The notes below the pieces were generated by a model. It saw only the letters and a list, made by a program, of their open reading frames with translations, was not told the origin of the DNA and searched no databases. 64,000 nucleotides of DNA from Naegleria gruberi. Taxonomy: Eukaryota. The position numbers were made by a program, and so were the translations under genes. Of this stretch, positions 13,869-61,800 are shown piece after piece. The stretch is from NCBI GenBank assembly GCA_000004985.1, contig GG738847.1; one strand, written 5' to 3'. Within the stretch, counting starts at the first letter, position 1; every line of letters starts with the position of its first letter.

Positions 13869-15965
13869 TTAATATCTGCTAATAAAAAGCCATGCATTTG
13901 GTTCTTTACCAGTTATAACACAAACATCCCCAGACTCAATTTTAGGGAATCTATCCACAAGATGTTGGTTAGACAATTCTGAAAATTTTGAATATCCTCT
14001 AAATTCAGCATTTGTTTTCTTGTAAAAATCCTCTTCCACTTCATGAATCCTATCCCACAACTCTTCACTAATATGGATTGGAGCAACAACATGCCAGAAT
14101 GGCGAATTAGTAATTGTCTTGGCATTGTATTCCATTTGTTGCTTTTTTCTCATCTTTGGATCTGTGCTTTGTAAGTTTTGTTTGAATTTTTCGTTAAAGG
14201 TTGAAATTAATTCTTCCATAGATTGAGCTTTTACAATTTGCACTCTATTCAAAATTGATTCCTTCAAATGTGAATCTTCCTTATCTAGTAGAGAACTGAT
14301 CATTTCGAAATTGACTTCATTGGCAGGAATTGTAGATTTCTTCAAACTATTTCTTCCCTTGATTGTAATGGTACTTCCTTCCAACTCTTGTTTTCCAATT
14401 GATACTACAAGTGAAACTCCTTTACTCTCCCACTGATAGAACTTTTCCACATTCTTGGTTGCATATCTCATATCGGCATGAACTCTAAAACCAAATGATT
14501 TGAGTTTCTTCTCCATGCTCCTCACATTCTCATACAATATATTGGTATCACAAGATTTACTGAGCATTGGAACAATAACTATTTGATACTTGTTCATGGT
14601 AGAGTGCAGTCTCAACCCCTTGTCATCTGAGCATGAAGCTGCACAAGCTCCAAGAATTCTAGAAGATATATTGCCACAAGTTTGAAAAATTGGCTGAACA
14701 AATATTTGAGATCAATACATGTTGTGAAAAATGTGAATAACTTACAGAAGTGAAATTATCTTGTTTCAATCTATACACGATATTGTACACATCTGAAAAT
14801 ATCCTTCCATAATACTTTCATTAAATGAAACAAATTAAAGTAGAATTCACTTGAAACAACTTACATTAGTTCTTGCAATATTTACACTAGTATTTACAAA
14901 AGGTAGACTCACATCAAACACAATGGCTTGTTTACAATGTGAGAATGCCTTCCAAGGGAAGAGATGATAGCTAATACCATTCCACAAATTACAAACATTC
15001 AATAGAACTGGAAGGTAAACTCTATTCCACATTATGTCATTCATATAAGAAAGAGCATTCTCCTCTGATTCGTGACAGGTATGAATTTCATGCTGATATT
15101 GCTCCTTATTTCCATAAAACAATGGCAATTGAATTCCCTCATCACTCATTACTTGTTGAAAATTCTTTGTCTTACAAATCACCTTATATGGTAACTGAAT
15201 ATAACTCCTTATAATATTCTTAAGGTATGGGAAGATAGCCCACTCACTATTTGGTTTCAAATAAACATTTGGATAATTAAACTTCATTTCATAATCCTCA
15301 TAAATATATCCTCTACTAAGTGAAAACAATTTAGGATCCATCACATGTTGAAATGCATTGACATTGAATAATGAATTTGTTTCCTTAACCTCTTCCATTA
15401 TACTATCAACTTCAACTTGTGATGATTCATTCCACTCTGGTTCTTCATAATCATCAAATCTAACCAATGGATCAGCACCCAATTCCATCATGGCCGAATT
15501 ATTATTATTACTATTATTCATCAATTGTTGTTGATATTCTTCACCATCTTCCTGTTGTTGACTTCTTGGATTTGGATTACTATTTGATAAGGGTTGATCT
15601 CTCAAACTAACCAGCATGGGTAAATCAATCCTCTCCAATTTCTTCTCTTCTATGGCTCCGATCATTGTCTTTTGTGAGGAGGTTATTCCTTCATCCTTAT
15701 TAGAGGAGGAATCTTGATCGGAAGAGGTTTTCAGAATTTCATCAATTAATTTGGCCTTTTCCAAAGCTTCCTCCTCATCAAATCTTTCATCCACTTTGCC
15801 AAATAATTTATCCATCAATTCAAGTGCCTGTTCCTTCCAAATGATGTGTCCATCGAGTGAGTATCGTTCATCCACAAAATTCAAAATCATTGGAGAGGTA
15901 CTCCACTCCTGAAGCCAAGCTTGAAATTGTGTTAGCTCGACGGTGGTTATTCCTTGAGAAGACAT
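13869..15965 (-). CDS. Prolyl-tRNA synthetase-like protein, eukaryote/archaeal-type with C-terminal domain. Three exons: 14865..15965, 14746..14792, 13869..14693
   Basis: Class II aaRS blocks. Motif-1 region SYIQLPYKVICKTKNF ~ ProRS SYKQLP..Q.TKF. Motif-3 region PIFQTCGNISSRILGACAAS. Anticodon-binding domain YQIVIVPM..KKLKSFGFRVHADMRY..KGVSLVVSIGKQELE. C-terminal extension like eukaryotic ProRS. Introns 14793..14864 (GTAAGT..TTTTCAG) and 14694..14745 (GTAAGT..TTGTTCAG). The exon-1 donor and phase of the 47-nt micro-exon are uncertain. Confidence 0.6.
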
Positions 15966-16258
15966 TTTTTTTTAATTGATTTGAAAGTGAAGAATGCACT
16001 TGTGAAATTGATATTGTAAAGTTAGTTTGGATTGTGGTGATTATAGAGATTCATGACATGCACTTTCGAATAAATGCATTAGGTGTCTTATAGGGGATAT
16101 TTTGAAAAAATTACACCTTGAGTGAAAAGGATTATCAAGAATAAGCCTTCCTAAAACTTTCTTATAAAACCATTGTCGACAACTAATAAGAGAAATCATT
16201 TTGGCGATCAATTTTCACATGTCACCAAAATTTAAATCAAAAAAACAAATCAAAAAAA

Positions 16259-17158
16259 ATGTCATCAGCAATCCTCTCCCGTTTAGAAACCTGTGTAACT
16301 CGCTTGCAAAAAATCAATCCAAAATCATCTTCTGGTGGTAGTTCTTCATCATCAAGCGATGCTGCTCCTCAAGTTGTTGCCTATGAAGAATATTACAATG
16401 ATAATATTGTTCCATTGTTGGAAACCATGACAAAGATTGGAGGTGAAACTGCTCAAATGGTTAGTTTCTTCTTTTCAATGTTCAATATTTAATCTTCATC
16501 ACATTTTCATGTTATTATTCGAATGTTAATATACTATTGTATTATTATTTTGTAAATATTATAGAAAGATGCTGTTGAACAAGGATTCAAGGGATTAGGT
16601 AAAGTCATTGCTTTGGCTTCCACTCATCGTAAACCATCAAGTAATTATGACGAAACTATTGGTCAAATTCTTCAAAACAGTGGAATTGGACAAGCTTTGC
16701 AAACAACTGCTGATTTCCGTTTCAAGAATTTCAAATCAACTCAAGTTAATCATTTATATGCCATTGAAGAAGGTTTGAAGGTTGTTTTGTGGCCAACTAC
16801 CAATACTACTATTTCCTATGTTAAGGTATGTTTTAATTATTTTAACATCAAATATCTGATATTTGGTTTTCATTCATCACAAATTTACTTTTCACTTTGG
16901 TCTATTCTATCTATTTATGTGAATGATTTTGTTGAATATTGGATTTATATCTGAAAAATATATTAGGAAATGGTTAATGCAGTTTCATTCTATACAATGA
17001 AGGTTTTGACCTCAACAAAGACTAATAGTGATGCTGAAGTTCACAAGGCCTATGTCAACCAATGGAAAACATTGATTGAAGCCATGTCTGTTTATGTGAA
17101 GGAATTCCACATGACTGGATTGACTTTTAATCCAAAGGCTGCTCAAGAAGCTAAATAA
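16259..17158 (+). CDS. Cyclase-associated protein (CAP/Srv2) N-terminal helical-folded-domain homolog, short form (217 aa). Exons 16259..16459, 16565..16825, 16967..17158
   Basis: MSSAILSRLETCVTRL ~ CAP N-terminus (MADMQNLVERLERAVGRLE). AVSFYTMKVL..VHKAYVNQWKTLIEAMSVYVKEFHMTGLTFNP ~ CAP1 [39 protein letters not shown]. Introns 16460..16564 (GTTAGT..ATAG) and 16826..16966 (GTATGT..TTAG). In-frame TAA right after ..KAAQEAK. Confidence 0.7.
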
Positions 17159-17185
17159 ATTGTACATTATGTTGTTTTAATAAAG

Positions 17186-18067
17186 TCAATTATGACTTCC
17201 CCAAAAGAAAGTATTTCTCATCTTTTGTAATTTTTCTAATGCACCACTACATGTTCTTCCAATTTCTGTTTGTGTATCATTAATTCGTCTTAAAATAGAG
17301 TACATGTTTAGTATTTCCTCCGTTATATCACCAATAACTTTCATGTCTACATATAATTGATCGAACCACTTTCTGGCCTTTTCCTTGTTGATATTATTTT
17401 CTTCATCGTTCTTTAATATTGAAGTCATGTAAATGGATGTCAGGGACACCAGATAGGGTGGATATTTTAGAACCACCTCCGAATAGAAGCTATCATTCAC
17501 AATATTCCAACAAATCTGATACAGAGATTTATCAAGTTCTGCATCCTTTACATAGGTCATGAGGGAAGTATGAGAGTGAAAAACTGTTAAATTAAAATTC
17601 AATTGTTCCATTAAATATAATTCACATTCCAAAATTTGTTGTAGTGGGTAAGGAAAAAGTGTGGTAACATCCTTTGTATCATAATTTTGTGATGATGGTG
17701 TTTCCTTCCCCAAACATATTTGATGTATATTCTTAGCATTGAGTGGACATTCTTCGATTTTACTTGCCAACAACAATGCTGCAGCTCCCAGCAAGGCAGG
17801 ATCACAATCGGAAATACTATTCTGACAATAAAATCGTTTAAAATACACCATTGCTGTTGAAACTACTCTCAGATGGCCACCCACTTTCTTTCCAATATCT
17901 TTTAAATTTTTAATAGTACTCATCAAAATTAATTGTTTTTCCAAGGGAGAAAATTGTGCATCGGGATCGGATGTATCAAGCTGCTGAAGGGATGTTTGTG
18001 GTTGATTCGAAGAAGCTTGCTGCTGTTGTTTTTTAGATAATTGTGTTTGTATCCATTTGCTAATCAT
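17186..18067 (-). CDS. Cyclin C (CDK8/Mediator kinase-module cyclin)
   Basis: Cyclin box LRVVSTAMVYFKRFYCQNSISDCDPALLGAAALLLASKIEE. FPYPLQQILECELYLMEQLNFNLTVFH ~ human cyclin C FPYRMNHILECEFYLLELMDCCLIVYH. ATG at 18067 (MISKWIQTQ); ORF-track start upstream is non-ATG. Confidence 0.85.
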   Translation of the reverse strand: MISKWIQTQLSKKQQQQASSNQPQTSLQQLDTSDPDAQFSPLEKQLILMSTIKNLKDIGKKVGGHLRVVSTAMVYFKRFYCQNSISDCDPALLGAAALLLASKIEECPLNAKNIHQICLGKETPSSQNYDTKDVTTLFPYPLQQILECELYLMEQLNFNLTVFHSHTSLMTYVKDAELDKSLYQICWNIVNDSFYSEVVLKYPPYLVSLTSIYMTSILKNDEENNINKEKARKWFDQLYVDMKVIGDITEEILNMYSILRRINDTQTEIGRTCSGALEKLQKMRNTFFWGSHN

Positions 18068-18748
18068 GTCATTATTTCCAATAGTAATAATAATAATATT
18101 AATAATACAATAATGTTGTTTGTTATGACGATGATGGCCAACAAAATATTCAACACAATAGTAGAACATCAACAATACATCACACACGAGAAAATAAAAA
18201 CACTTCTCCTCCGATAATGTAATTTTTGATTTCTACTTACTATTGTGATGAAACCCAATAATTGTCCATTTTTTTGTATTTTTAGAATTATTAATAAATA
18301 GTATTATCATTTGTAAATTCTTATTGTTAACGTTAACAAGATTTGTTGTTATTGATCAATGATCATGAAATTGTTGATTTATTCCGAATACTACTACTCT
18401 ATCTTTTTGAATTTTTCATTATTGAATGGTCAAAAGTTAGGTGATAAAAACTTGAAATTAATGGTTAATGATGGTGATTATTTATTCTTACCTAAAGAAA
18501 ATGGTTTGATTTCCTGTGTTTCGGAAACAGCTGTAGAAAATTTGGCAGTCTTGGGCTTGATCATATATCCTCTTAATGATTCCCTTAATGAATTTTTGGT
18601 TAATTTCTACAATTTTTTCTATGAGATTTGCAAATTGTATGAATGCTAATTCAATTGGAGTTTGTTCTCTAACGAAGAAATTGACCTTCTTATGATTACC
18701 ATACATATCTATTAATGTTTGATTCTTCAAAAGCATTTGAAAAAAAAA

Positions 18749-36308: not shown

Positions 36309-39300
36309 TTATTGTGAATATTTTTCAATAGCCAAATTTTGTACAAGTGAACCAAGTTCAAAGACTGATTTGATTGCTATCAGTTCATCCTTTGGTTGAA
36401 CAAAAAGAGTATTAGCATCTCTTCCATTCTTTGAAAATGCTTCATCCAGTGAGTGATTCACAAATGGTGTGCATTTAGAAGTGAGAAGAGAATGTCTGCA
36501 TAAAACAAAGAGAGCTTTTCTAGCTGCAGACAAGGCAACAGATAATCTGTGAGGATCATTCAAGTGACCAGGATGGGTAGTTCTAACAGTTGAAAGAATG
36601 ACAATGTCATTAACTTGACCTTGATATCTATCAATGGTTGTTACCACTGGATAACCCAAAGATTCACATCTTTGTTTGAGAATATCCCTAATGAGAGTCT
36701 TCTGACCTTGGTATGAAGCAAGAATGGTAATAGAGTCAGAGGAGTGACCAATTAGACGCAAATACATGTACAGTGCTACAGCATATTCAGCCTCTCCTTG
36801 ATTTTGGTACATGTGAGAGGAGAGCAATGTTTCACCTCTTCCATTCAAATCTTCCACATTTACAAGTTGATAATTAAATTTGAATCCTTTCAATTTCTCT
36901 TCAGAATATGTTACATGATCATAAGTGTTTGGATAATTCCATTTGAATAGAGGTAGTAAGGATGAAGAAATTTGAGTTGAATCGAAAGGAAGTTTGATAA
37001 TATTCTCCTCATCAATGAATCTTCCAAAACGAGCAAATAAAGATTGACTCAAGTTGGAGAATGGCTCTATTTGTTTGTTATATACCACAGGTTTCATTTG
37101 ATTTAAATCTCCAATCAAGATTATTTTCTTAATTCTCTTAGATACTGTCATTGGGATGAAAGATTCAATTTCTGAAATTCTGCCAGCATCTTCAATGATT
37201 AATGTGTCAAAATTAAAATTGAGTTCTTGGAATTCCTTTCTCTTTACAGCCGCATGAGTGGAAGTCATGGCAACTACTCTTGATTGTTGAGTAAGAACGT
37301 GGTTACATCTCGATTGGTAGGCTCTGATATTCTCCAATACCTTACATTCGTTGATGAGTTCGAATAATAATTTCAATTCGGAATATAATTCGTGAGCCAT
37401 GTCTAAATTTTCATTAAATGACTCAGACGAGAACAAATGCTCTTCATTCATAACTTCTCTAAAGTAATTTTGGAATGGGAAGTTGGTCTCAAAGAATGAA
37501 AGACTTTCATTTTCCAATTCCTTATCCTTTGAACCACACAACTCCAGGAATGACTTCCAAAGAGAGTGAATATTACCAATAAAGAAATGAGAAGCTGTTT
37601 CACATGAAATATTAGTGAATTGAGGATAGCCAAGAGAAGTAGCCAACTGTTCTAGAGTTTTCAAAACTTCAATTCTTTTTTGAATGAGGTAATTGACTCT
37701 ACCGAATTTGCTATACTCATTCTTTTCACCGCCTAGTCTAAGTAAATGTCTTTCGTGTACTTTAGAATTCTCTAATTGTTCAAATACGCTATTCAAAGCT
37801 AAATTTGACCTAGCAATAATCACTGTTCTTTGATTTGGATTTGTAACATAAATATTCTCAATAATCTTTGTTAAAACGTTATGCTTTCCGCACCCTGGAG
37901 GAGCTTGAATATAGGTGAGTCCCTTTTCTGGGCTGGTTGCTGATCGAATGGCTCTTATTTGCTCCTTACTGAATCTATAACCAGTATCGGTTGCATTAGG
38001 TGATTTCAACTCTCTAGGAATGTATGATGAGTAGGCTGTAACATTCTTCTCCAAACCAAAGGTAACAGTGAAGTAATTAGAATTGGTTGGACTAGAAGCT
38101 TTCAAATTGCTTGGAACATCTAGAGATTCCCTAATATGGTCTTCATCTTGGAAAGAATTTCTAAAATCAACTGTACTCTCAGAAGAATCGAAAGAAGGTT
38201 CATAACCAAGAATATAATCTGATAACCAACTAACAAGGTTGTTTGTTCCATTATTCATTAAATTTCTCATGCTTTCGAGAACAGCTTTGAAATTATTATC
38301 TTTTGGTTTCTGTCTTACTACCAAGTTAAAGTGAGAATAAATGTCTACTCGTGACTTTTCTTGTTCCTTTCTATCAGCAAGATATTGAATCGGATCCAAT
38401 AAGACAACCAATCTACGTTCTGGTGTTGAAAGCTCAAATTCAAGGGTTTCGTCTTGCTCGGCAACCTTTGTTTGGTTGTTAATGACATTTCCATCCGCAT
38501 CCTCTTGCCTCAACAACTCACATCCTCTAATAGAGACAATGCCAAACTTTTCATCGAATTTGGCATTTTCATTGCTGTGCATTTTGGCCTTAATTTGAAC
38601 TAGGAAAAGAATATCATTCTTTCTAATATTTTCCCATTCCTCACGAATACTTTGTGATTCAATAGAGGAAAGATTAATCGTAATGGCTCCTTCAACCTTG
38701 GATGGTGAGGTTTCTCCGATACTTGGGGGAGCAACCTCAACAAGTTCAAAAGGAGAAGTCATCGGAAGGGCCATTCTAAATCCAGAATGAAATTGTGTCT
38801 TGCCAGTTGCAGGATTCTTAGAGTATTCCAAATTAGAAATAGTATTTTCAAGAGATTGTCTCAAGCTGTATGTCTTTTCAAGTTTGAAAAGCTCATAATT
38901 TCTGAGCAAATAGTCAAACAAGGAGAGATATTGAATTCCAAGTTTTGGAATAATATTTGGTAATCCTTTGTAAGCTAAATTGGTTTGAATAGATTCATCG
39001 GTAAGACCTTCAGCCCAAATGGTCTTTTCTGTTGGATAAAGAGAAGTGGTATTGATCTTTTCTATTGGGGATGGTTTTCTTTCGTGATTGGATACTATTA
39101 ATTCAATGAGAAGCTCCTCAGAAAAATCCTCTCCAGTTTCATACTTTCCCACTAAATCTAAATGTCTACACAAATCTACTAGCTCTTCCTTTTTAATTGA
39201 AGCGAGGATCTTTTCGAGGTAATCCCTAGATTGAACTGTAGCAACTGTCTGGACGGAAAGATCCTTTAAACTTTCAGTAAAATGTTGGAATGATATTAAT

Positions 39301-40351
39301 TGCAAATTTGCAACCTTTTCAGCATAAATACCTGCATATTCTGTTGCTGACAAGACTTCTCCTGTATCGTCATTAATATCGAAATGTAAATAGAACTCGT
39401 ATTTCTCTACCAAATCAAAAAACTTTGAAGACTGTGCGCCTGTTCTTAAAAACAATCTACAATGCTCCAAAACATGAGCATCTAACAAGTATAGACGTGA
39501 AAATTTTCTTGTTGGTATTTGAGAAAGTAAATCTATTAAAAATTCTAAAAATCTTTCACAGTATGTCATTAATTCATTATTATCACCTTCTACCAAACTC
39601 TTGAGAGATTCTAAAAAGTGAGTGACAAGAGATGGAACAAAGTTTGACTTGGAATCAGAATTGTTTTTCTTTGCAGAAAATTTTTTCCAATATTTTGTTA
39701 ATCCTCTCTTTGCTATTTCATTGTTTCTTCTAGAAGGATTAACATGAGTCCACAAAGGTAGTGACACATAATCCAAACACAATCTATTTATCAAATCAAT
39801 ATGAGAGAAACAATTAATCAGAAATACGATTAATATCAGTCTTTCCTTTGTATTCCTATATTCCAAATTAATTGCCAAATTATGTAATTGTTCGAATTTA
39901 CTATCAGTAGCAATATCCTTGAAATTAGTTTGATGACATTTTTCATTAATCATTACTATTAAAGATAATATAAATTCTCTAGAGTTTTTTCCATTATCAA
40001 AATTATTCCACAATACACTATTCATGTGTTAATCAATTCATTTCCTAAGAAAACTTACTGTTCAAAATAATTCGATGAAAATAATTGTGCAAATACTCCG
40101 CTAGATTCATTCAACAAATCCATACAAATAACATCAAATACTTGATTAATTAATTGTTCATCAAGAGCAATACACTTTTCCCATCGGGTTGATAAAACTC
40201 TAATTTGTTCATCATTGGCTTGATCCACCTTCATTTTCTTACTAGAGGCCTCTGAAGATCCTTCTTCCACAGTTGTTTGTTGATGATCATCACCATTCAT
40301 ACCATCACCATTATCAGGTAACACATTTTCCTCTGGATTTTTTCTCTTCAT
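36309..40351 (-). CDS. Aquarius (AQR/IBP160/EMB-4) intron-binding spliceosomal SF1 helicase homolog. Exons 40059..40351 and 36309..40017, with a 41-nt intron 40018..40058
   Basis: Long collinear similarity to AQR. RTVIIARSNLALNSVFEQLENSKVHERHLLRLGGEKNEYSKFGRVNYLIQKRIEVL ~ AQR RTLIVTHSNQALNQLFEKI..ERHLLRLGHGEE..SRYGRVNYVLARRIELL. Helicase motifs IQAPPGCGKHNV (I), LIIEDAGRISEIE (II), ILIGDLNQMKPVV, LASYQGQ, TIDRYQGQ. N-terminal exon block YFEH|VLWNNF..LSLIVMINEKC matches the AQR N-terminus. Confidence 0.8.
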
Positions 40352-51471: not shown

Positions 51472-51521
51472 NNNNNNNNNNNNNNNNNNNNNNNNNNNNN
51501 NNNNNNNNNNNNNNNNNNNNN
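51472..51521. other. 50-N scaffold gap
   Basis: Exactly 50 n characters. Confidence 0.99.
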
Positions 51522-52806: not shown

Positions 52807-55800
52807 NNNNNNNNNNNNNNNNNNNNNNNNNNNNNNNNNNNNNNNNNNNNNNNNNNNNNNNNNNNNNNNNNNNNNNNNNNNNNNNNNNNNNNNNNNNNNN
52901 NNNNNNNNNNNNNNNNNNNNNNNNNNNNNNNNNNNNNNNNNNNNNNNNNNNNNNNNNNNNNNNNNNNNNNNNNNNNNNNNNNNNNNNNNNNNNNNNNNNN
53001 NNNNNNNNNNNNNNNNNNNNNNNNNNNNNNNNNNNNNNNNNNNNNNNNNNNNNNNNNNNNNNNNNNNNNNNNNNNNNNNNNNNNNNNNNNNNNNNNNNNN
53101 NNNNNNNNNNNNNNNNNNNNNNNNNNNNNNNNNNNNNNNNNNNNNNNNNNNNNNNNNNNNNNNNNNNNNNNNNNNNNNNNNNNNNNNNNNNNNNNNNNNN
53201 NNNNNNNNNNNNNNNNNNNNNNNNNNNNNNNNNNNNNNNNNNNNNNNNNNNNNNNNNNNNNNNNNNNNNNNNNNNNNNNNNNNNNNNNNNNNNNNNNNNN
53301 NNNNNNNNNNNNNNNNNNNNNNNNNNNNNNNNNNNNNNNNNNNNNNNNNNNNNNNNNNNNNNNNNNNNNNNNNNNNNNNNNNNNNNNNNNNNNNNNNNNN
53401 NNNNNNNNNNNNNNNNNNNNNNNNNNNNNNNNNNNNNNNNNNNNNNNNNNNNNNNNNNNNNNNNNNNNNNNNNNNNNNNNNNNNNNNNNNNNNNNNNNNN
53501 NNNNNNNNNNNNNNNNNNNNNNNNNNNNNNNNNNNNNNNNNNNNNNNNNNNNNNNNNNNNNNNNNNNNNNNNNNNNNNNNNNNNNNNNNNNNNNNNNNNN
53601 NNNNNNNNNNNNNNNNNNNNNNNNNNNNNNNNNNNNNNNNNNNNNNNNNNNNNNNNNNNNNNNNNNNNNNNNNNNNNNNNNNNNNNNNNNNNNNNNNNNN
53701 NNNNNNNNNNNNNNNNNNNNNNNNNNNNNNNNNNNNNNNNNNNNNNNNNNNNNNNNNNNNNNNNNNNNNNNNNNNNNNNNNNNNNNNNNNNNNNNNNNNN
53801 NNNNNNNNNNNNNNNNNNNNNNNNNNNNNNNNNNNNNNNNNNNNNNNNNNNNNNNNNNNNNNNNNNNNNNNNNNNNNNNNNNNNNNNNNNNNNNNNNNNN
53901 NNNNNNNNNNNNNNNNNNNNNNNNNNNNNNNNNNNNNNNNNNNNNNNNNNNNNNNNNNNNNNNNNNNNNNNNNNNNNNNNNNNNNNNNNNNNNNNNNNNN
54001 NNNNNNNNNNNNNNNNNNNNNNNNNNNNNNNNNNNNNNNNNNNNNNNNNNNNNNNNNNNNNNNNNNNNNNNNNNNNNNNNNNNNNNNNNNNNNNNNNNNN
54101 NNNNNNNNNNNNNNNNNNNNNNNNNNNNNNNNNNNNNNNNNNNNNNNNNNNNNNNNNNNNNNNNNNNNNNNNNNNNNNNNNNNNNNNNNNNNNNNNNNNN
54201 NNNNNNNNNNNNNNNNNNNNNNNNNNNNNNNNNNNNNNNNNNNNNNNNNNNNNNNNNNNNNNNNNNNNNNNNNNNNNNNNNNNNNNNNNNNNNNNNNNNN
54301 NNNNNNNNNNNNNNNNNNNNNNNNNNNNNNNNNNNNNNNNNNNNNNNNNNNNNNNNNNNNNNNNNNNNNNNNNNNNNNNNNNNNNNNNNNNNNNNNNNNN
54401 NNNNNNNNNNNNNNNNNNNNNNNNNNNNNNNNNNNNNNNNNNNNNNNNNNNNNNNNNNNNNNNNNNNNNNNNNNNNNNNNNNNNNNNNNNNNNNNNNNNN
54501 NNNNNNNNNNNNNNNNNNNNNNNNNNNNNNNNNNNNNNNNNNNNNNNNNNNNNNNNNNNNNNNNNNNNNNNNNNNNNNNNNNNNNNNNNNNNNNNNNNNN
54601 NNNNNNNNNNNNNNNNNNNNNNNNNNNNNNNNNNNNNNNNNNNNNNNNNNNNNNNNNNNNNNNNNNNNNNNNNNNNNNNNNNNNNNNNNNNNNNNNNNNN
54701 NNNNNNNNNNNNNNNNNNNNNNNNNNNNNNNNNNNNNNNNNNNNNNNNNNNNNNNNNNNNNNNNNNNNNNNNNNNNNNNNNNNNNNNNNNNNNNNNNNNN
54801 NNNNNNNNNNNNNNNNNNNNNNNNNNNNNNNNNNNNNNNNNNNNNNNNNNNNNNNNNNNNNNNNNNNNNNNNNNNNNNNNNNNNNNNNNNNNNNNNNNNN
54901 NNNNNNNNNNNNNNNNNNNNNNNNNNNNNNNNNNNNNNNNNNNNNNNNNNNNNNNNNNNNNNNNNNNNNNNNNNNNNNNNNNNNNNNNNNNNNNNNNNNN
55001 NNNNNNNNNNNNNNNNNNNNNNNNNNNNNNNNNNNNNNNNNNNNNNNNNNNNNNNNNNNNNNNNNNNNNNNNNNNNNNNNNNNNNNNNNNNNNNNNNNNN
55101 NNNNNNNNNNNNNNNNNNNNNNNNNNNNNNNNNNNNNNNNNNNNNNNNNNNNNNNNNNNNNNNNNNNNNNNNNNNNNNNNNNNNNNNNNNNNNNNNNNNN
55201 NNNNNNNNNNNNNNNNNNNNNNNNNNNNNNNNNNNNNNNNNNNNNNNNNNNNNNNNNNNNNNNNNNNNNNNNNNNNNNNNNNNNNNNNNNNNNNNNNNNN
55301 NNNNNNNNNNNNNNNNNNNNNNNNNNNNNNNNNNNNNNNNNNNNNNNNNNNNNNNNNNNNNNNNNNNNNNNNNNNNNNNNNNNNNNNNNNNNNNNNNNNN
55401 NNNNNNNNNNNNNNNNNNNNNNNNNNNNNNNNNNNNNNNNNNNNNNNNNNNNNNNNNNNNNNNNNNNNNNNNNNNNNNNNNNNNNNNNNNNNNNNNNNNN
55501 NNNNNNNNNNNNNNNNNNNNNNNNNNNNNNNNNNNNNNNNNNNNNNNNNNNNNNNNNNNNNNNNNNNNNNNNNNNNNNNNNNNNNNNNNNNNNNNNNNNN
55601 NNNNNNNNNNNNNNNNNNNNNNNNNNNNNNNNNNNNNNNNNNNNNNNNNNNNNNNNNNNNNNNNNNNNNNNNNNNNNNNNNNNNNNNNNNNNNNNNNNNN
55701 NNNNNNNNNNNNNNNNNNNNNNNNNNNNNNNNNNNNNNNNNNNNNNNNNNNNNNNNNNNNNNNNNNNNNNNNNNNNNNNNNNNNNNNNNNNNNNNNNNNN

Positions 55801-58800
55801 NNNNNNNNNNNNNNNNNNNNNNNNNNNNNNNNNNNNNNNNNNNNNNNNNNNNNNNNNNNNNNNNNNNNNNNNNNNNNNNNNNNNNNNNNNNNNNNNNNNN
55901 NNNNNNNNNNNNNNNNNNNNNNNNNNNNNNNNNNNNNNNNNNNNNNNNNNNNNNNNNNNNNNNNNNNNNNNNNNNNNNNNNNNNNNNNNNNNNNNNNNNN
56001 NNNNNNNNNNNNNNNNNNNNNNNNNNNNNNNNNNNNNNNNNNNNNNNNNNNNNNNNNNNNNNNNNNNNNNNNNNNNNNNNNNNNNNNNNNNNNNNNNNNN
56101 NNNNNNNNNNNNNNNNNNNNNNNNNNNNNNNNNNNNNNNNNNNNNNNNNNNNNNNNNNNNNNNNNNNNNNNNNNNNNNNNNNNNNNNNNNNNNNNNNNNN
56201 NNNNNNNNNNNNNNNNNNNNNNNNNNNNNNNNNNNNNNNNNNNNNNNNNNNNNNNNNNNNNNNNNNNNNNNNNNNNNNNNNNNNNNNNNNNNNNNNNNNN
56301 NNNNNNNNNNNNNNNNNNNNNNNNNNNNNNNNNNNNNNNNNNNNNNNNNNNNNNNNNNNNNNNNNNNNNNNNNNNNNNNNNNNNNNNNNNNNNNNNNNNN
56401 NNNNNNNNNNNNNNNNNNNNNNNNNNNNNNNNNNNNNNNNNNNNNNNNNNNNNNNNNNNNNNNNNNNNNNNNNNNNNNNNNNNNNNNNNNNNNNNNNNNN
56501 NNNNNNNNNNNNNNNNNNNNNNNNNNNNNNNNNNNNNNNNNNNNNNNNNNNNNNNNNNNNNNNNNNNNNNNNNNNNNNNNNNNNNNNNNNNNNNNNNNNN
56601 NNNNNNNNNNNNNNNNNNNNNNNNNNNNNNNNNNNNNNNNNNNNNNNNNNNNNNNNNNNNNNNNNNNNNNNNNNNNNNNNNNNNNNNNNNNNNNNNNNNN
56701 NNNNNNNNNNNNNNNNNNNNNNNNNNNNNNNNNNNNNNNNNNNNNNNNNNNNNNNNNNNNNNNNNNNNNNNNNNNNNNNNNNNNNNNNNNNNNNNNNNNN
56801 NNNNNNNNNNNNNNNNNNNNNNNNNNNNNNNNNNNNNNNNNNNNNNNNNNNNNNNNNNNNNNNNNNNNNNNNNNNNNNNNNNNNNNNNNNNNNNNNNNNN
56901 NNNNNNNNNNNNNNNNNNNNNNNNNNNNNNNNNNNNNNNNNNNNNNNNNNNNNNNNNNNNNNNNNNNNNNNNNNNNNNNNNNNNNNNNNNNNNNNNNNNN
57001 NNNNNNNNNNNNNNNNNNNNNNNNNNNNNNNNNNNNNNNNNNNNNNNNNNNNNNNNNNNNNNNNNNNNNNNNNNNNNNNNNNNNNNNNNNNNNNNNNNNN
57101 NNNNNNNNNNNNNNNNNNNNNNNNNNNNNNNNNNNNNNNNNNNNNNNNNNNNNNNNNNNNNNNNNNNNNNNNNNNNNNNNNNNNNNNNNNNNNNNNNNNN
57201 NNNNNNNNNNNNNNNNNNNNNNNNNNNNNNNNNNNNNNNNNNNNNNNNNNNNNNNNNNNNNNNNNNNNNNNNNNNNNNNNNNNNNNNNNNNNNNNNNNNN
57301 NNNNNNNNNNNNNNNNNNNNNNNNNNNNNNNNNNNNNNNNNNNNNNNNNNNNNNNNNNNNNNNNNNNNNNNNNNNNNNNNNNNNNNNNNNNNNNNNNNNN
57401 NNNNNNNNNNNNNNNNNNNNNNNNNNNNNNNNNNNNNNNNNNNNNNNNNNNNNNNNNNNNNNNNNNNNNNNNNNNNNNNNNNNNNNNNNNNNNNNNNNNN
57501 NNNNNNNNNNNNNNNNNNNNNNNNNNNNNNNNNNNNNNNNNNNNNNNNNNNNNNNNNNNNNNNNNNNNNNNNNNNNNNNNNNNNNNNNNNNNNNNNNNNN
57601 NNNNNNNNNNNNNNNNNNNNNNNNNNNNNNNNNNNNNNNNNNNNNNNNNNNNNNNNNNNNNNNNNNNNNNNNNNNNNNNNNNNNNNNNNNNNNNNNNNNN
57701 NNNNNNNNNNNNNNNNNNNNNNNNNNNNNNNNNNNNNNNNNNNNNNNNNNNNNNNNNNNNNNNNNNNNNNNNNNNNNNNNNNNNNNNNNNNNNNNNNNNN
57801 NNNNNNNNNNNNNNNNNNNNNNNNNNNNNNNNNNNNNNNNNNNNNNNNNNNNNNNNNNNNNNNNNNNNNNNNNNNNNNNNNNNNNNNNNNNNNNNNNNNN
57901 NNNNNNNNNNNNNNNNNNNNNNNNNNNNNNNNNNNNNNNNNNNNNNNNNNNNNNNNNNNNNNNNNNNNNNNNNNNNNNNNNNNNNNNNNNNNNNNNNNNN
58001 NNNNNNNNNNNNNNNNNNNNNNNNNNNNNNNNNNNNNNNNNNNNNNNNNNNNNNNNNNNNNNNNNNNNNNNNNNNNNNNNNNNNNNNNNNNNNNNNNNNN
58101 NNNNNNNNNNNNNNNNNNNNNNNNNNNNNNNNNNNNNNNNNNNNNNNNNNNNNNNNNNNNNNNNNNNNNNNNNNNNNNNNNNNNNNNNNNNNNNNNNNNN
58201 NNNNNNNNNNNNNNNNNNNNNNNNNNNNNNNNNNNNNNNNNNNNNNNNNNNNNNNNNNNNNNNNNNNNNNNNNNNNNNNNNNNNNNNNNNNNNNNNNNNN
58301 NNNNNNNNNNNNNNNNNNNNNNNNNNNNNNNNNNNNNNNNNNNNNNNNNNNNNNNNNNNNNNNNNNNNNNNNNNNNNNNNNNNNNNNNNNNNNNNNNNNN
58401 NNNNNNNNNNNNNNNNNNNNNNNNNNNNNNNNNNNNNNNNNNNNNNNNNNNNNNNNNNNNNNNNNNNNNNNNNNNNNNNNNNNNNNNNNNNNNNNNNNNN
58501 NNNNNNNNNNNNNNNNNNNNNNNNNNNNNNNNNNNNNNNNNNNNNNNNNNNNNNNNNNNNNNNNNNNNNNNNNNNNNNNNNNNNNNNNNNNNNNNNNNNN
58601 NNNNNNNNNNNNNNNNNNNNNNNNNNNNNNNNNNNNNNNNNNNNNNNNNNNNNNNNNNNNNNNNNNNNNNNNNNNNNNNNNNNNNNNNNNNNNNNNNNNN
58701 NNNNNNNNNNNNNNNNNNNNNNNNNNNNNNNNNNNNNNNNNNNNNNNNNNNNNNNNNNNNNNNNNNNNNNNNNNNNNNNNNNNNNNNNNNNNNNNNNNNN

Positions 58801-61800
58801 NNNNNNNNNNNNNNNNNNNNNNNNNNNNNNNNNNNNNNNNNNNNNNNNNNNNNNNNNNNNNNNNNNNNNNNNNNNNNNNNNNNNNNNNNNNNNNNNNNNN
58901 NNNNNNNNNNNNNNNNNNNNNNNNNNNNNNNNNNNNNNNNNNNNNNNNNNNNNNNNNNNNNNNNNNNNNNNNNNNNNNNNNNNNNNNNNNNNNNNNNNNN
59001 NNNNNNNNNNNNNNNNNNNNNNNNNNNNNNNNNNNNNNNNNNNNNNNNNNNNNNNNNNNNNNNNNNNNNNNNNNNNNNNNNNNNNNNNNNNNNNNNNNNN
59101 NNNNNNNNNNNNNNNNNNNNNNNNNNNNNNNNNNNNNNNNNNNNNNNNNNNNNNNNNNNNNNNNNNNNNNNNNNNNNNNNNNNNNNNNNNNNNNNNNNNN
59201 NNNNNNNNNNNNNNNNNNNNNNNNNNNNNNNNNNNNNNNNNNNNNNNNNNNNNNNNNNNNNNNNNNNNNNNNNNNNNNNNNNNNNNNNNNNNNNNNNNNN
59301 NNNNNNNNNNNNNNNNNNNNNNNNNNNNNNNNNNNNNNNNNNNNNNNNNNNNNNNNNNNNNNNNNNNNNNNNNNNNNNNNNNNNNNNNNNNNNNNNNNNN
59401 NNNNNNNNNNNNNNNNNNNNNNNNNNNNNNNNNNNNNNNNNNNNNNNNNNNNNNNNNNNNNNNNNNNNNNNNNNNNNNNNNNNNNNNNNNNNNNNNNNNN
59501 NNNNNNNNNNNNNNNNNNNNNNNNNNNNNNNNNNNNNNNNNNNNNNNNNNNNNNNNNNNNNNNNNNNNNNNNNNNNNNNNNNNNNNNNNNNNNNNNNNNN
59601 NNNNNNNNNNNNNNNNNNNNNNNNNNNNNNNNNNNNNNNNNNNNNNNNNNNNNNNNNNNNNNNNNNNNNNNNNNNNNNNNNNNNNNNNNNNNNNNNNNNN
59701 NNNNNNNNNNNNNNNNNNNNNNNNNNNNNNNNNNNNNNNNNNNNNNNNNNNNNNNNNNNNNNNNNNNNNNNNNNNNNNNNNNNNNNNNNNNNNNNNNNNN
59801 NNNNNNNNNNNNNNNNNNNNNNNNNNNNNNNNNNNNNNNNNNNNNNNNNNNNNNNNNNNNNNNNNNNNNNNNNNNNNNNNNNNNNNNNNNNNNNNNNNNN
59901 NNNNNNNNNNNNNNNNNNNNNNNNNNNNNNNNNNNNNNNNNNNNNNNNNNNNNNNNNNNNNNNNNNNNNNNNNNNNNNNNNNNNNNNNNNNNNNNNNNNN
60001 NNNNNNNNNNNNNNNNNNNNNNNNNNNNNNNNNNNNNNNNNNNNNNNNNNNNNNNNNNNNNNNNNNNNNNNNNNNNNNNNNNNNNNNNNNNNNNNNNNNN
60101 NNNNNNNNNNNNNNNNNNNNNNNNNNNNNNNNNNNNNNNNNNNNNNNNNNNNNNNNNNNNNNNNNNNNNNNNNNNNNNNNNNNNNNNNNNNNNNNNNNNN
60201 NNNNNNNNNNNNNNNNNNNNNNNNNNNNNNNNNNNNNNNNNNNNNNNNNNNNNNNNNNNNNNNNNNNNNNNNNNNNNNNNNNNNNNNNNNNNNNNNNNNN
60301 NNNNNNNNNNNNNNNNNNNNNNNNNNNNNNNNNNNNNNNNNNNNNNNNNNNNNNNNNNNNNNNNNNNNNNNNNNNNNNNNNNNNNNNNNNNNNNNNNNNN
60401 NNNNNNNNNNNNNNNNNNNNNNNNNNNNNNNNNNNNNNNNNNNNNNNNNNNNNNNNNNNNNNNNNNNNNNNNNNNNNNNNNNNNNNNNNNNNNNNNNNNN
60501 NNNNNNNNNNNNNNNNNNNNNNNNNNNNNNNNNNNNNNNNNNNNNNNNNNNNNNNNNNNNNNNNNNNNNNNNNNNNNNNNNNNNNNNNNNNNNNNNNNNN
60601 NNNNNNNNNNNNNNNNNNNNNNNNNNNNNNNNNNNNNNNNNNNNNNNNNNNNNNNNNNNNNNNNNNNNNNNNNNNNNNNNNNNNNNNNNNNNNNNNNNNN
60701 NNNNNNNNNNNNNNNNNNNNNNNNNNNNNNNNNNNNNNNNNNNNNNNNNNNNNNNNNNNNNNNNNNNNNNNNNNNNNNNNNNNNNNNNNNNNNNNNNNNN
60801 NNNNNNNNNNNNNNNNNNNNNNNNNNNNNNNNNNNNNNNNNNNNNNNNNNNNNNNNNNNNNNNNNNNNNNNNNNNNNNNNNNNNNNNNNNNNNNNNNNNN
60901 NNNNNNNNNNNNNNNNNNNNNNNNNNNNNNNNNNNNNNNNNNNNNNNNNNNNNNNNNNNNNNNNNNNNNNNNNNNNNNNNNNNNNNNNNNNNNNNNNNNN
61001 NNNNNNNNNNNNNNNNNNNNNNNNNNNNNNNNNNNNNNNNNNNNNNNNNNNNNNNNNNNNNNNNNNNNNNNNNNNNNNNNNNNNNNNNNNNNNNNNNNNN
61101 NNNNNNNNNNNNNNNNNNNNNNNNNNNNNNNNNNNNNNNNNNNNNNNNNNNNNNNNNNNNNNNNNNNNNNNNNNNNNNNNNNNNNNNNNNNNNNNNNNNN
61201 NNNNNNNNNNNNNNNNNNNNNNNNNNNNNNNNNNNNNNNNNNNNNNNNNNNNNNNNNNNNNNNNNNNNNNNNNNNNNNNNNNNNNNNNNNNNNNNNNNNN
61301 NNNNNNNNNNNNNNNNNNNNNNNNNNNNNNNNNNNNNNNNNNNNNNNNNNNNNNNNNNNNNNNNNNNNNNNNNNNNNNNNNNNNNNNNNNNNNNNNNNNN
61401 NNNNNNNNNNNNNNNNNNNNNNNNNNNNNNNNNNNNNNNNNNNNNNNNNNNNNNNNNNNNNNNNNNNNNNNNNNNNNNNNNNNNNNNNNNNNNNNNNNNN
61501 NNNNNNNNNNNNNNNNNNNNNNNNNNNNNNNNNNNNNNNNNNNNNNNNNNNNNNNNNNNNNNNNNNNNNNNNNNNNNNNNNNNNNNNNNNNNNNNNNNNN
61601 NNNNNNNNNNNNNNNNNNNNNNNNNNNNNNNNNNNNNNNNNNNNNNNNNNNNNNNNNNNNNNNNNNNNNNNNNNNNNNNNNNNNNNNNNNNNNNNNNNNN
61701 NNNNNNNNNNNNNNNNNNNNNNNNNNNNNNNNNNNNNNNNNNNNNNNNNNNNNNNNNNNNNNNNNNNNNNNNNNNNNNNNNNNNNNNNNNNNNNNNNNNN

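What the first reader, a model, noticed from the sequence alone, without database searches (positions are those of the whole stretch)
16259..17158. CAP/Srv2 homolog consisting only of the N-terminal helical folded domain
The three-exon gene encodes 217 aa that align to the CAP N-terminal dimerisation/HFD region: the start matches the CAP N-terminal helix, and the end matches the KEFHTTGL block. An in-frame TAA follows immediately, and cyclin C converges only 28 bp away. The WH2, poly-Pro and C-terminal beta-helix (CARP) domains that bind actin monomers are absent. This may be a naturally short CAP-N paralog, which would act on cofilin-actin filament ends only, or the 3' exons may be missing.
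Basis: partly seen in the sequence, partly recalled or inferred. Interest (0 to 1): 0.5.

Follow-up and report, generated by a model that had tools for sequence, protein, structure and literature searches.

The report
Stand-alone N-terminal CAP paralogue in Naegleria
This is a real, conserved amoeba gene encoding only the front half of the actin regulator CAP (an oligomerisation helix plus the filament-end-binding helical domain); related species also carry a normal full-length CAP, so it is a natural "half-CAP" paralogue, a small and apparently undescribed variation on a well-known protein.

Summary
Exons 16259-16459, 16565-16825 and 16967-17158 (+) splice in frame (GT..AG, phase 0) into a 217-aa protein. 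It matches Pfam CAP_N end to end (E=9e-33) and human CAP1 residues 7-208 (E=1e-17). It stops 9 residues after that CAP1 match ends (11 after CAP_N), 27 nt from the stop of a convergent cyclin C gene. No sequence resembling the CAP C-terminal half occurs in the 52.8 kb of real sequence. The window comes from a Naegleria-lineage amoeba. Equally short orthologues exist in N. lovaniensis (221 aa, 62% identical) and a fowleri-like Naegleria (223 aa). They end at the same point despite different downstream neighbours and are under purifying selection (dN/dS 0.13). N. lovaniensis, N. fowleri and Willaertia magna each also have a full-length CAP (CAP_N+CAP_C, about 490-500 aa). Short and full-length genes share one intron at the same position and phase, which points to a DNA-level partial duplication. 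Willaertia has its own, younger CAP_N-only copy. The actin-contact residues Arg119, Phe162 and Tyr163 and the N-terminal helix are retained. The "naturally short paralogue" reading is therefore supported, and the "missing 3' exons" reading is rejected. The function, an autonomous N-CAP that speeds cofilin-dependent pointed-end depolymerisation and may co-oligomerise with full-length CAP, is inferred and untested. I rate it a new variant of a known kind, of moderate interest.

The parts
15966..16258 (.). 293-bp divergent intergenic region between the CAP-N start and the start of the minus-strand ORF 14847-15965. It is the presumed shared promoter and 5'UTR.
   Evidence: ORF list and sequence. 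No promoter test was done.
16259..16459 (+). Exon 1, codons 1-67. It holds the ATG, the N-terminal oligomerisation-type helix (about residues 4-20, nt 16268-16318), a Ser/Gly-rich linker, and the first HFD helix (the HFD starts at residue 42, nt 16382).
   Evidence: The AF2 model of the orthologue has a helix at 2-20, a disordered stretch at 23-34 and the bundle from residue 39.
16460..16564 (+). Intron 1 (105 nt, GTTAGT..TATAG, phase 0), located after IGGETAQM. Position and phase are shared with the short genes of N. lovaniensis, the fowleri-like Naegleria and Willaertia, and with the full-length CAP genes of N. lovaniensis and Willaertia.
16565..16825 (+). Exon 2, codons 68-154: the central HFD helices, including Arg119, His130 and Trp143.
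16826..16966 (+). Intron 2 (141 nt, GTATGT..TTAG, phase 0), between SYVK and EMVN. It is absent from all compared homologous genes, so it is specific to this lineage.
16967..17158 (+). Exon 3, codons 155-217 plus the TAA stop (17156-17158): the last HFD helices with Phe162/Tyr163, the KEFHMTGL block (HFD ends at residue 206, nt 17122) and an 11-residue tail.
17179..17184 (+). AATAAA hexamer 20 nt after the stop codon, abutting the cyclin C stop. It is a consensus match only.
   Evidence: Read directly from the sequence. Not tested.
17186..18067 (-). Context only: the convergent cyclin C homologue. Its stop codon (17186-17188) lies 27 nt from the CAP-N stop, leaving no room for further CAP exons before the next gene.
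   Evidence: Cyclin_N, E=1.2e-13; cyclin C, E=1.4e-32.

Best explanation
The locus is an intact, selectively maintained gene for a stand-alone 'N-CAP': the N-terminal oligomerisation helix plus the helical folded domain (HFD) of cyclase-associated protein. It naturally lacks the poly-Pro/WH2/CARP half. It is a paralogue of the ordinary full-length CAP found in Naegleria-lineage amoebae. It arose by DNA-level duplication of the 5' half of that gene, as shown by the shared intron. The following is inferred and not shown here. The protein forms oligomers through its N-terminal helix. Its HFDs bind the pointed-end face (subdomains 2 and 4) of cofilin-bound ADP-actin and so accelerate cofilin-dependent pointed-end depolymerisation or severing. 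Nucleotide exchange and monomer recharging are left to the full-length CAP. Because the oligomerisation helix is very similar in the two paralogues, mixed oligomers that raise the N:C domain ratio are also possible.
For: Shown here. (1) Gene model and domain: CAP_N matched over its full length at E=9e-33, and CAP1 in the PDB at E=1e-17. (2) The AF2 model of the N. lovaniensis orthologue (pLDDT 91.8) superposes on the CAP1 HFD bound to the pointed end (9y9j, 6rsw) with target TM 0.92-0.93 and rmsd 1.7 A. (3) Short orthologues of 221 aa (N. lovaniensis) and 223 aa (fowleri-like) have homologous stops and different 3' neighbours. (4) dN/dS is 0.13 at dS 0.54 between those two, and 0.18-0.20 against the window gene, where dS is saturated. 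The window protein is 62% identical to N. lovaniensis, no lower than the aquarius helicase of the same window (58-59%). (5) Full-length CAPs (CAP_N+CAP_C) occur in N. lovaniensis (497 aa), N. fowleri (501 aa) and Willaertia (491 aa). (6) All Naegleria and Willaertia CAP-N sequences form one clade (99% bootstrap), and the Naegleria short genes form a 100% clade. (7) The intron position and phase are identical in short and full-length genes. (8) No C-half homology occurs in the window: tblastn with five heterolobosean CAPs and an HMM built from 110 C-halves give a best E of 2.7, against 297 bits for the positive control. None occurs in the flanks of the orthologous loci either. (9) Arg119, Phe162 and Tyr163 are retained, corresponding to mouse R118, F162 and Y163. 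In PMC6876575 the aromatic pair is essential for binding cofilin/actin. The window protein keeps 18 of 32 ultra-conserved N-half positions, against 23 of 32 for Naegleria full-length CAP. From the literature: N-CAP (OD+HFD) works autonomously and needs oligomerisation (PMC7543520, PMC6876575).
Against: There is no transcript, protein or biochemical evidence for this gene. The presence of a full-length CAP in the window's own genome is inferred from three bracketing relatives and was not observed. The CAP_N-CM motif falls below the Pfam threshold (E=0.055). The window protein has the lowest CAP_N score of the set (114 bits, against 140-225 for other CAPs) and has several substitutions at otherwise conserved sites (P107G, P149T, N165M, W208F). 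The Glu that salt-bridges actin Lys50 in mouse is Phe here, although this change is also present in the full-length heterolobosean CAPs. Binding to actin/cofilin is therefore plausible but unproven.
Confidence: 0.8

Rival explanations
1. The gene model is truncated: further 3' exons encoding poly-Pro/WH2/CARP exist, and the TAA is skipped by splicing.
For: Naegleria-lineage genes do contain introns, and no RNA evidence is available here.
Against: A convergent cyclin C coding sequence starts 27 nt downstream. No C-half homology exists in any frame of the 52.8 kb: the HMM gives a best E of 2.7 and the positive control gives 297 bits. Orthologues in two other Naegleria, and the Willaertia copy, stop at the homologous point with unrelated downstream genes and no CARP remnants. 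Similarity to full-length CAP (WNAKASQ against FNPKAAQ) runs right up to the stop codon.
Confidence: 0.03
2. It is a decaying partial duplicate, that is, a pseudogene or non-functional relic of CAP.
For: It is a truncated copy. It has the lowest CAP_N score of the set and several substitutions at conserved sites.
Against: The ORF is intact and the splice sites are canonical in at least three species, with saturated synonymous divergence between the window and the other two (dS 1.6-1.8). dN/dS is 0.13-0.20. Divergence between species matches that of a core spliceosomal helicase. Key interface residues are kept.
Confidence: 0.05
3. It is a gene fission: this species has no full-length CAP, and the N and C halves are encoded by two separate genes that work in trans.
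For: The halves of CAP are known to function separately (PMC7543520). The rest of this genome could not be searched. Apicomplexa show that one half can exist alone (PMC6785269).
Against: N. lovaniensis, N. fowleri and Willaertia, which bracket the window species (aquarius 59/58/47% identity), all have a full-length CAP in addition to a short copy, or to no annotated short copy. The short clade is a distinct long-branched paralogue group and not the orthologue of the N-half of full-length CAP.
Confidence: 0.03
4. It is a real gene with a changed role. One option is a regulator that co-assembles with full-length CAP through the shared N-terminal helix, tuning or inhibiting it. Another is an adaptor using the N-terminal helix for non-actin partners such as nucleotide cyclases, the original yeast function of that helix.
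For: The N-terminal RLE..RLEKI helix is very similar in the short and full-length paralogues. The short clade has its own fixed differences: a 2-residue insertion, G107 and T/A149. N-only copies arose or were homogenised separately in Willaertia, which suggests that dosage of this half matters.
Against: The actin-contact residues R119, F162 and Y163 and the HFD fold are conserved under purifying selection. That would not be needed for a pure oligomerisation or cyclase adaptor. No data address partners.
Confidence: 0.25

Closest known systems
N-CAP / N-Srv2, the N-terminal half of cyclase-associated protein (CAP1, Srv2), studied as a recombinant fragment
   Same: The composition is the same: an N-terminal coiled-coil-type helix, a flexible linker and a six-helix HFD. 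It matches CAP_N over the full length. The model superposes on the CAP1 HFD at rmsd 1.7 A. R118, F162 and Y163 equivalents are kept.
   Different: Here the N-half is a separate gene with its own stop codon. It is conserved across Naegleria species and coexists with a full-length CAP. In the literature read, N-CAP is an engineered fragment (PMC7543520, PMC6876575). The Glu that pairs with actin Lys50 is Phe.
Full-length CAP of the same lineage (N. lovaniensis XP_044553151.1, 497 aa; N. fowleri 501 aa; Willaertia magna ABK040_005120, 491 aa)
   Same: It is 47-53% identical over the N-half, shares the intron position and phase, and shares lineage-specific substitutions.
   Different: The full-length proteins continue into a Ser-rich linker, poly-Pro, a WH2-like region and CAP_C (E=2.4e-58). 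The window protein stops 11 residues after the HFD.
Apicomplexan truncated CAP (Plasmodium, Cryptosporidium, Toxoplasma)
   Same: This is the precedent for a natural CAP reduced to one half (PMC6785269, citing Hliscs et al. 2010).
   Different: It is the mirror image. Apicomplexan CAP keeps only the C-terminal CARP domain and is the sole CAP. Here only the N-half is kept, and it is an extra paralogue.
Willaertia magna CAP_N-only protein (ABK040_015433, 226 aa) and the Pharyngomonas kirbyi 215-aa CAP_N-only transcript
   Same: The architecture is the same (helix plus HFD, with a stop 10-20 residues after GLxW).
   Different: The Willaertia copy groups with Willaertia's own full-length CAP (100% bootstrap, 72% identical, dS 0.62) and lacks the signature changes of the Naegleria short clade. 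It is therefore an independent duplication or has been gene-converted. The Pharyngomonas sequence is transcriptome-only and unverified.

Membership tests
CAP/Srv2 (full-length cyclase-associated protein) | Helical folded domain (Pfam CAP_N, PF21938) | tested here: met
   E=9e-33, 114 bits against a cut-off of 27, model positions 1-159 of 159. PDB CAP1 HFD at E=1e-17. The orthologue model has target TM 0.92-0.93 to 6rsw and 9y9j.
CAP/Srv2 (full-length cyclase-associated protein) | N-terminal oligomerisation / CAP_N-CM motif (PF01213) | tested here: inconclusive
   E=0.055, 14.3 bits, below the cut-off of 19. phmmer nevertheless aligns residues 5-20 to CAP1 residues 7-22. The orthologue model has a helix at 2-20 with pLDDT of about 70-76. 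Oligomerisation itself is not testable here.
CAP/Srv2 (full-length cyclase-associated protein) | Poly-proline (P1/P2) and WH2 regions | tested here: not met
   The protein ends 11 residues after the HFD and has no proline run. The four conserved P1 proline columns of 105 CAPs are gaps in all short proteins.
CAP/Srv2 (full-length cyclase-associated protein) | C-terminal CARP beta-helix (Pfam CAP_C, PF08603) | tested here: not met
   There is no CAP_C hit in the protein. There is no C-half homology in the six-frame translation of the window: tblastn with Naegleria and Willaertia CAPs found only the N-half gene, and the custom HMM gave a best E of 2.7 against 297 bits for the control.
Functional N-CAP (pointed-end depolymerisation cofactor of cofilin) | Actin-binding interface 1 residues (mouse R118, E119, F162, Y163; PMC6876575) | tested here: met
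   R119, F162 and Y163 are conserved. The E119 equivalent is Phe, as it is in the full-length heterolobosean CAPs. Three of the four residues are kept.
Functional N-CAP (pointed-end depolymerisation cofactor of cofilin) | Binding to cofilin/ADP-actin and acceleration of pointed-end depolymerisation; higher-order oligomer | not testable with these tools
   This requires biochemistry.
Apicomplexan-type truncated CAP | Consists of the CARP domain only and is the sole CAP in the genome | tested here: not met
   The opposite half is retained, and relatives also carry a full-length CAP.

The most novel reading that the evidence does not exclude
Heterolobosean amoebae have repeatedly evolved (Naegleria, Willaertia, possibly Pharyngomonas) a dedicated stand-alone N-CAP. 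This uncouples the filament-depolymerising half of CAP from the monomer-recharging half. It lets the cell set the ratio of the two activities, either as a separate oligomer or by mixing into full-length CAP oligomers, possibly as an adaptation to very fast actin turnover. It would be the natural mirror image of the C-only CAP of Apicomplexa.
Probability: 0.35. Interest if true: 0.55.

Novelty: new variant of a known kind. Interest (0 to 1): 0.4.

Why it matters
CAP is one of the few actin regulators regarded as universal, and it is described as a two-halved machine. The N-half strips cofilin-bound subunits from pointed ends, and the C-half recharges the monomers. Work on separated halves has used engineered fragments, and the only natural half-CAP in the papers read is the C-only form of Apicomplexa. 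A conserved, selected N-only paralogue that coexists with full-length CAP would be a natural experiment in uncoupling the two activities. It could be tested directly with recombinant protein and Naegleria actin and cofilin. The searched literature has nothing on it. It also warns annotators not to "repair" such short CAP genes. The domain and its likely chemistry are well known, so the advance is modest.

Tried and rejected

(2) The first word-indexed search found only 3 relatives. That tool is too insensitive for distant CAPs, and the full-length Naegleria CAP appeared only in the exhaustive search.

It was replaced by database-derived heterolobosean CAPs and an HMM.

(4) Most other short CAP_N-only hits turned out to be fragments. 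They were labelled 'partial' (Limulus, Quaeritorhiza, Linderina) or sat on contigs under 1-3 kb, so they were not counted as natural N-only proteins.

(5) I looked for synteny as an orthology test. Nothing is shared between the window and the N. lovaniensis, fowleri-like or Willaertia loci apart from the CAP-N gene itself. The beta-helix genes near the gene in two species are not homologous at E<1e-5.

(6) A first bootstrap tree with Biopython timed out. It was redone with my own neighbour-joining code. No maximum-likelihood tree was possible, and the position of the Naegleria short clade relative to the Naegleria-full and Willaertia groups stays unresolved (39% against 44%).

(7) An exact-sequence look-up of a neighbouring window ORF found nothing, so the species could not be named.

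(8) Literature searches for Naegleria or Heterolobosea together with CAP/Srv2, and for CAP HFD paralogues, returned nothing relevant.

Full report
**1. What is in the sequence**

The window is AT-rich eukaryotic DNA (31-36% GC). Real sequence runs from 1 to 52806, and the rest is N.

They are 16259-16459, 16565-16825 and 16967-17158. Both introns have GT..AG boundaries and all junctions are phase 0. The 654-nt CDS encodes 217 aa and ends in TAA at 17156-17158. The ATG at 16259 is the first start codon after the upstream in-frame stop.

Left unspliced, the reading frame hits a stop 11 codons into intron 1 (ORF end 16492) and 43 codons into intron 2 (ORF end 16954).

**2. Is it CAP-N, and beyond chance?**

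- Pfam CAP_N (PF21938) matches residues 42-206 across the whole model (1-159 of 159) with E=9e-33.
- PDB chains of human and mouse CAP1 and of Dictyostelium CAP match at E=1e-17 to 3e-11. Human CAP1 aligns from residue 7 to 208 with query residues 5-209. The alignment includes the N-terminal helix (ILSRLETCVTRLQKI against LVERLERAVGRLEAV) and the terminal KEFH(M/T)TGL block.
- The separate Pfam model for the N-terminal motif is sub-threshold (E=0.055).
- An AlphaFold model of the N. lovaniensis orthologue has mean pLDDT 91.8. It shows a helix at 2-20, a disordered linker at 23-34 and a helical bundle.
- In Foldseek its only significant PDB matches are CAP HFDs. These include CAP1 on the pointed end of cofilin-F-actin (9y9j) and on G-actin (6rsw), with target TM 0.92-0.93 and rmsd 1.6-1.7 A.

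**3. Is the short end real?**

- The convergent ORF 17186-18187 (-) is a cyclin C homologue. Pfam Cyclin_N gives E=1.2e-13, and the best PDB hits are cyclin C at E=1.4e-32 against cyclin K at 7e-22.
- Its stop codon lies 27 nt from the CAP-N stop. An AATAAA hexamer (17179-17184) sits between them.
- tblastn with five full-length heterolobosean CAPs hits only the N-half gene. An HMM that I built from the C-terminal halves of 110 full-length CAPs finds nothing in any stop-to-stop segment of 15 aa or more on either strand. Its best E is 2.7, and the positive control scores 297 bits.
- The other large ORFs are unrelated genes. They include a Bin3 methyltransferase, a P4-ATPase, an RGS protein, a Rieske oxygenase, a DSP phosphatase, a WD40 protein, aquarius, HlyIII and a Ras-like protein.

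**4. Relatives**

The closest database protein is Naegleria lovaniensis C9374_013770. It is 221 aa, 62% identical and contains CAP_N only. A second Naegleria, 88% identical to N. lovaniensis and here called fowleri-like, carries the same gene on Logan and ENA contigs. A prokaryote-style gene caller had split it at its intron, and re-splicing gives 223 aa.

Both orthologues end 14 residues after GLNW. Their downstream neighbours are RRM and pyruvate carboxylase genes, not cyclin C. No CARP remnant lies in their flanks.

N. lovaniensis has an intron exactly where the window has intron 1. It reads straight through SYVKEMVNAV where the window has intron 2. Both window splice junctions are therefore validated, and intron 2 is specific to this lineage.

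The window's aquarius helicase is 59% identical to that of N. fowleri, 58% to N. lovaniensis and 47% to Willaertia. No exact match exists for a neighbouring ORF. The source is therefore a Naegleria-lineage amoeba that is absent from the protein collection. By these two proteins it lies closer to N. fowleri and N. lovaniensis than Willaertia does.

**5. Paralogue, not sole CAP**

An exhaustive phmmer search with the N. lovaniensis short protein recovered several informative hits.

- A 497-aa N. lovaniensis protein (XP_044553151.1) has CAP_N-CM, CAP_N and CAP_C (E=2.4e-58). It is 51% identical to the short protein over the N-half.
- Searching with that protein found full-length CAPs in N. fowleri (501 aa) and Willaertia magna (491 aa). 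It also found two unnamed proteins from environmental contigs (ENA, JGI, Logan) that are 71-75% identical to the N. lovaniensis CAP.
- Willaertia has a 226-aa CAP_N-only gene as well, lying inside 259-kb and 313-kb contigs.
- Pharyngomonas has a 215-aa CAP_N-only transcript.
- Other short hits are annotated as partial or sit on tiny contigs, and I discounted them.

**6. Origin**

I built a neighbour-joining tree from 210 columns with 300 bootstraps.

| Grouping | Bootstrap support |
|---|---|
| All Naegleria and Willaertia CAP-N sequences, short and full | 99% |
| The three Naegleria short proteins | 100% |
| Willaertia short with Willaertia full-length | 100% |
| Naegleria short with Naegleria full-length | 39% |
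| Naegleria full-length with both Willaertia sequences | 44% |

The branching order among the three groups is therefore unresolved.

The full-length N. lovaniensis and Willaertia genes each have a single phase-0 intron after IGG+5 residues. This is the same position as intron 1 of all the short genes. The duplication was therefore at the DNA level and not a retrocopy.

Willaertia short against Willaertia full-length gives dS of 0.62, compared with about 2 between the genera. The Willaertia short copy also lacks the signatures of the Naegleria short clade, namely a 2-residue insertion, G107 and T/A149. It is either an independent, younger duplication or has been gene-converted. Either way, an N-only copy has been kept in both genera.

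**7. Selection and functional residues**

| Comparison | dN/dS | dS |
|---|---|---|
| N. lovaniensis vs fowleri-like short gene | 0.13 | 0.54 |
| Window vs either of those | 0.18-0.20 | saturated (1.6-1.8) |

I examined the 32 N-half positions that are at least 85% conserved in 105 non-heterolobosean CAPs. The window protein keeps 18, the other Naegleria short proteins keep 21, and the Naegleria full-length CAPs keep 23. W143, H130, N129, E136, E155, K199 and H202 are retained.

PMC6876575 identifies mouse R118 and E119 as forming salt bridges to actin E57 and K50. It identifies F162 and Y163 as essential for binding cofilin/actin. The window protein has R119, F162 and Y163. The Glu equivalent is Phe, but that is also true of the full-length heterolobosean CAPs.

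**8. Mechanism (inferred)**

According to PMC7543520 and PMC6876575, N-CAP (the oligomerisation domain plus the HFD) acts autonomously. [quoted passage not shown] It needs oligomerisation for efficiency. The C-half displaces cofilin and exchanges nucleotide.

The window protein has every sequence element of N-CAP and none of C-CAP. The most likely function is therefore a stand-alone depolymerisation or severing cofactor for cofilin. The close similarity of the N-terminal helix to that of full-length CAP makes mixed oligomers possible. None of this was tested.

**9. Comparison and novelty**

The nearest known entities are:
- the engineered N-CAP/N-Srv2 fragment;
- the lineage's own full-length CAP;
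- the C-only CAP of Apicomplexa, which is the mirror image (PMC6785269).

The protein fails membership of full-length CAP, because poly-Pro, WH2 and CARP were tested and are absent. It is a clear member of the CAP_N domain family. Orthologues sit in public databases as 'hypothetical' or 'CAP N-terminal domain-containing' proteins. The searchable literature held nothing on an N-only CAP paralogue or on CAP in Heterolobosea.

**Verdict**

The gene is real and its short form is natural. It is a new variant of a known kind, of moderate interest.

Noticed in passing
window 16826-16966: Intron 2 of the CAP-N gene (between SYVK and EMVN) is absent from the short genes of N. lovaniensis, the fowleri-like Naegleria and Willaertia. 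It is also absent from the full-length CAP genes of N. lovaniensis and Willaertia. It is a lineage-specific intron, either gained here or lost in the others.
   Followed up: partly
proteins P0004, P0006-P0008, P0010-P0013, P0015 and others: Many protist and algal CAPs carry 2-5 tandem HFD (CAP_N) repeats. Examples are Porphyridium purpureum KAA8499829.1 (960 aa), Compsopogon, the tubulinean amoebae Nolandella and Rhizamoeba, and the diplonemid Namystynia (4 x CAP_N plus CAP_C). Pygsuia has 2 x CAP_N and no CAP_C. The number of HFDs per chain is evolutionarily plastic, and none of the papers I read mentions this.
   Followed up: partly
L005:3001-3735 and L006:3001-3735 (Willaertia magna JBEGDK010000058.1 / 077.1); L007:1501-3017: Willaertia has its own CAP_N-only gene, with an identical protein on two contigs. 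It is 72% identical to Willaertia's full-length CAP (dS 0.62). Nucleotide identity is uneven: 56-62% in the first 60 codons and 77-89% afterwards. This fits a younger independent duplication or partial gene conversion.
   Followed up: partly
window codons 120 and 123 of the CAP-N gene (about nt 16721-16732); same columns in P0005, P0156, P0159: All Naegleria and Willaertia CAP HFDs, short and full-length, have Phe in place of the Glu that salt-bridges actin Lys50 in mouse CAP1. They have Phe or Asn in place of a 96%-conserved Arg three residues later. This may reflect co-evolution with the lineage's actin D-loop region, which was not examined.
   Followed up: no
window 36312-40028 (-) and 14847-15965 (-): The aquarius helicase ORF is only 59%, 58% and 47% identical to N. 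fowleri, N. lovaniensis and Willaertia respectively. A neighbouring 372-aa ORF has no exact match and no Pfam domain. The source genome is a Naegleria-lineage species not represented in the protein collection.
   Followed up: partly
L001:1117-7955 (N. lovaniensis PYSW02000076.1): The annotated 1503-aa gene combines an RRM_1 domain with a complete pyruvate carboxylase. In the fowleri-like contig the same region is called as several separate ORFs. It is possibly a merged gene model.
   Followed up: no
window 51472-51521 and 52807-64000: There is a 50-N assembly gap. The last 11.2 kb of the window are all N, so only 52.8 kb of sequence could be examined.
   Followed up: yes
window 17159-17188: The CAP-N and cyclin C coding regions converge with 27 nt between their stop codons, and an AATAAA abuts the cyclin C stop. 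The two 3'UTRs must overlap the opposite gene.
   Followed up: no
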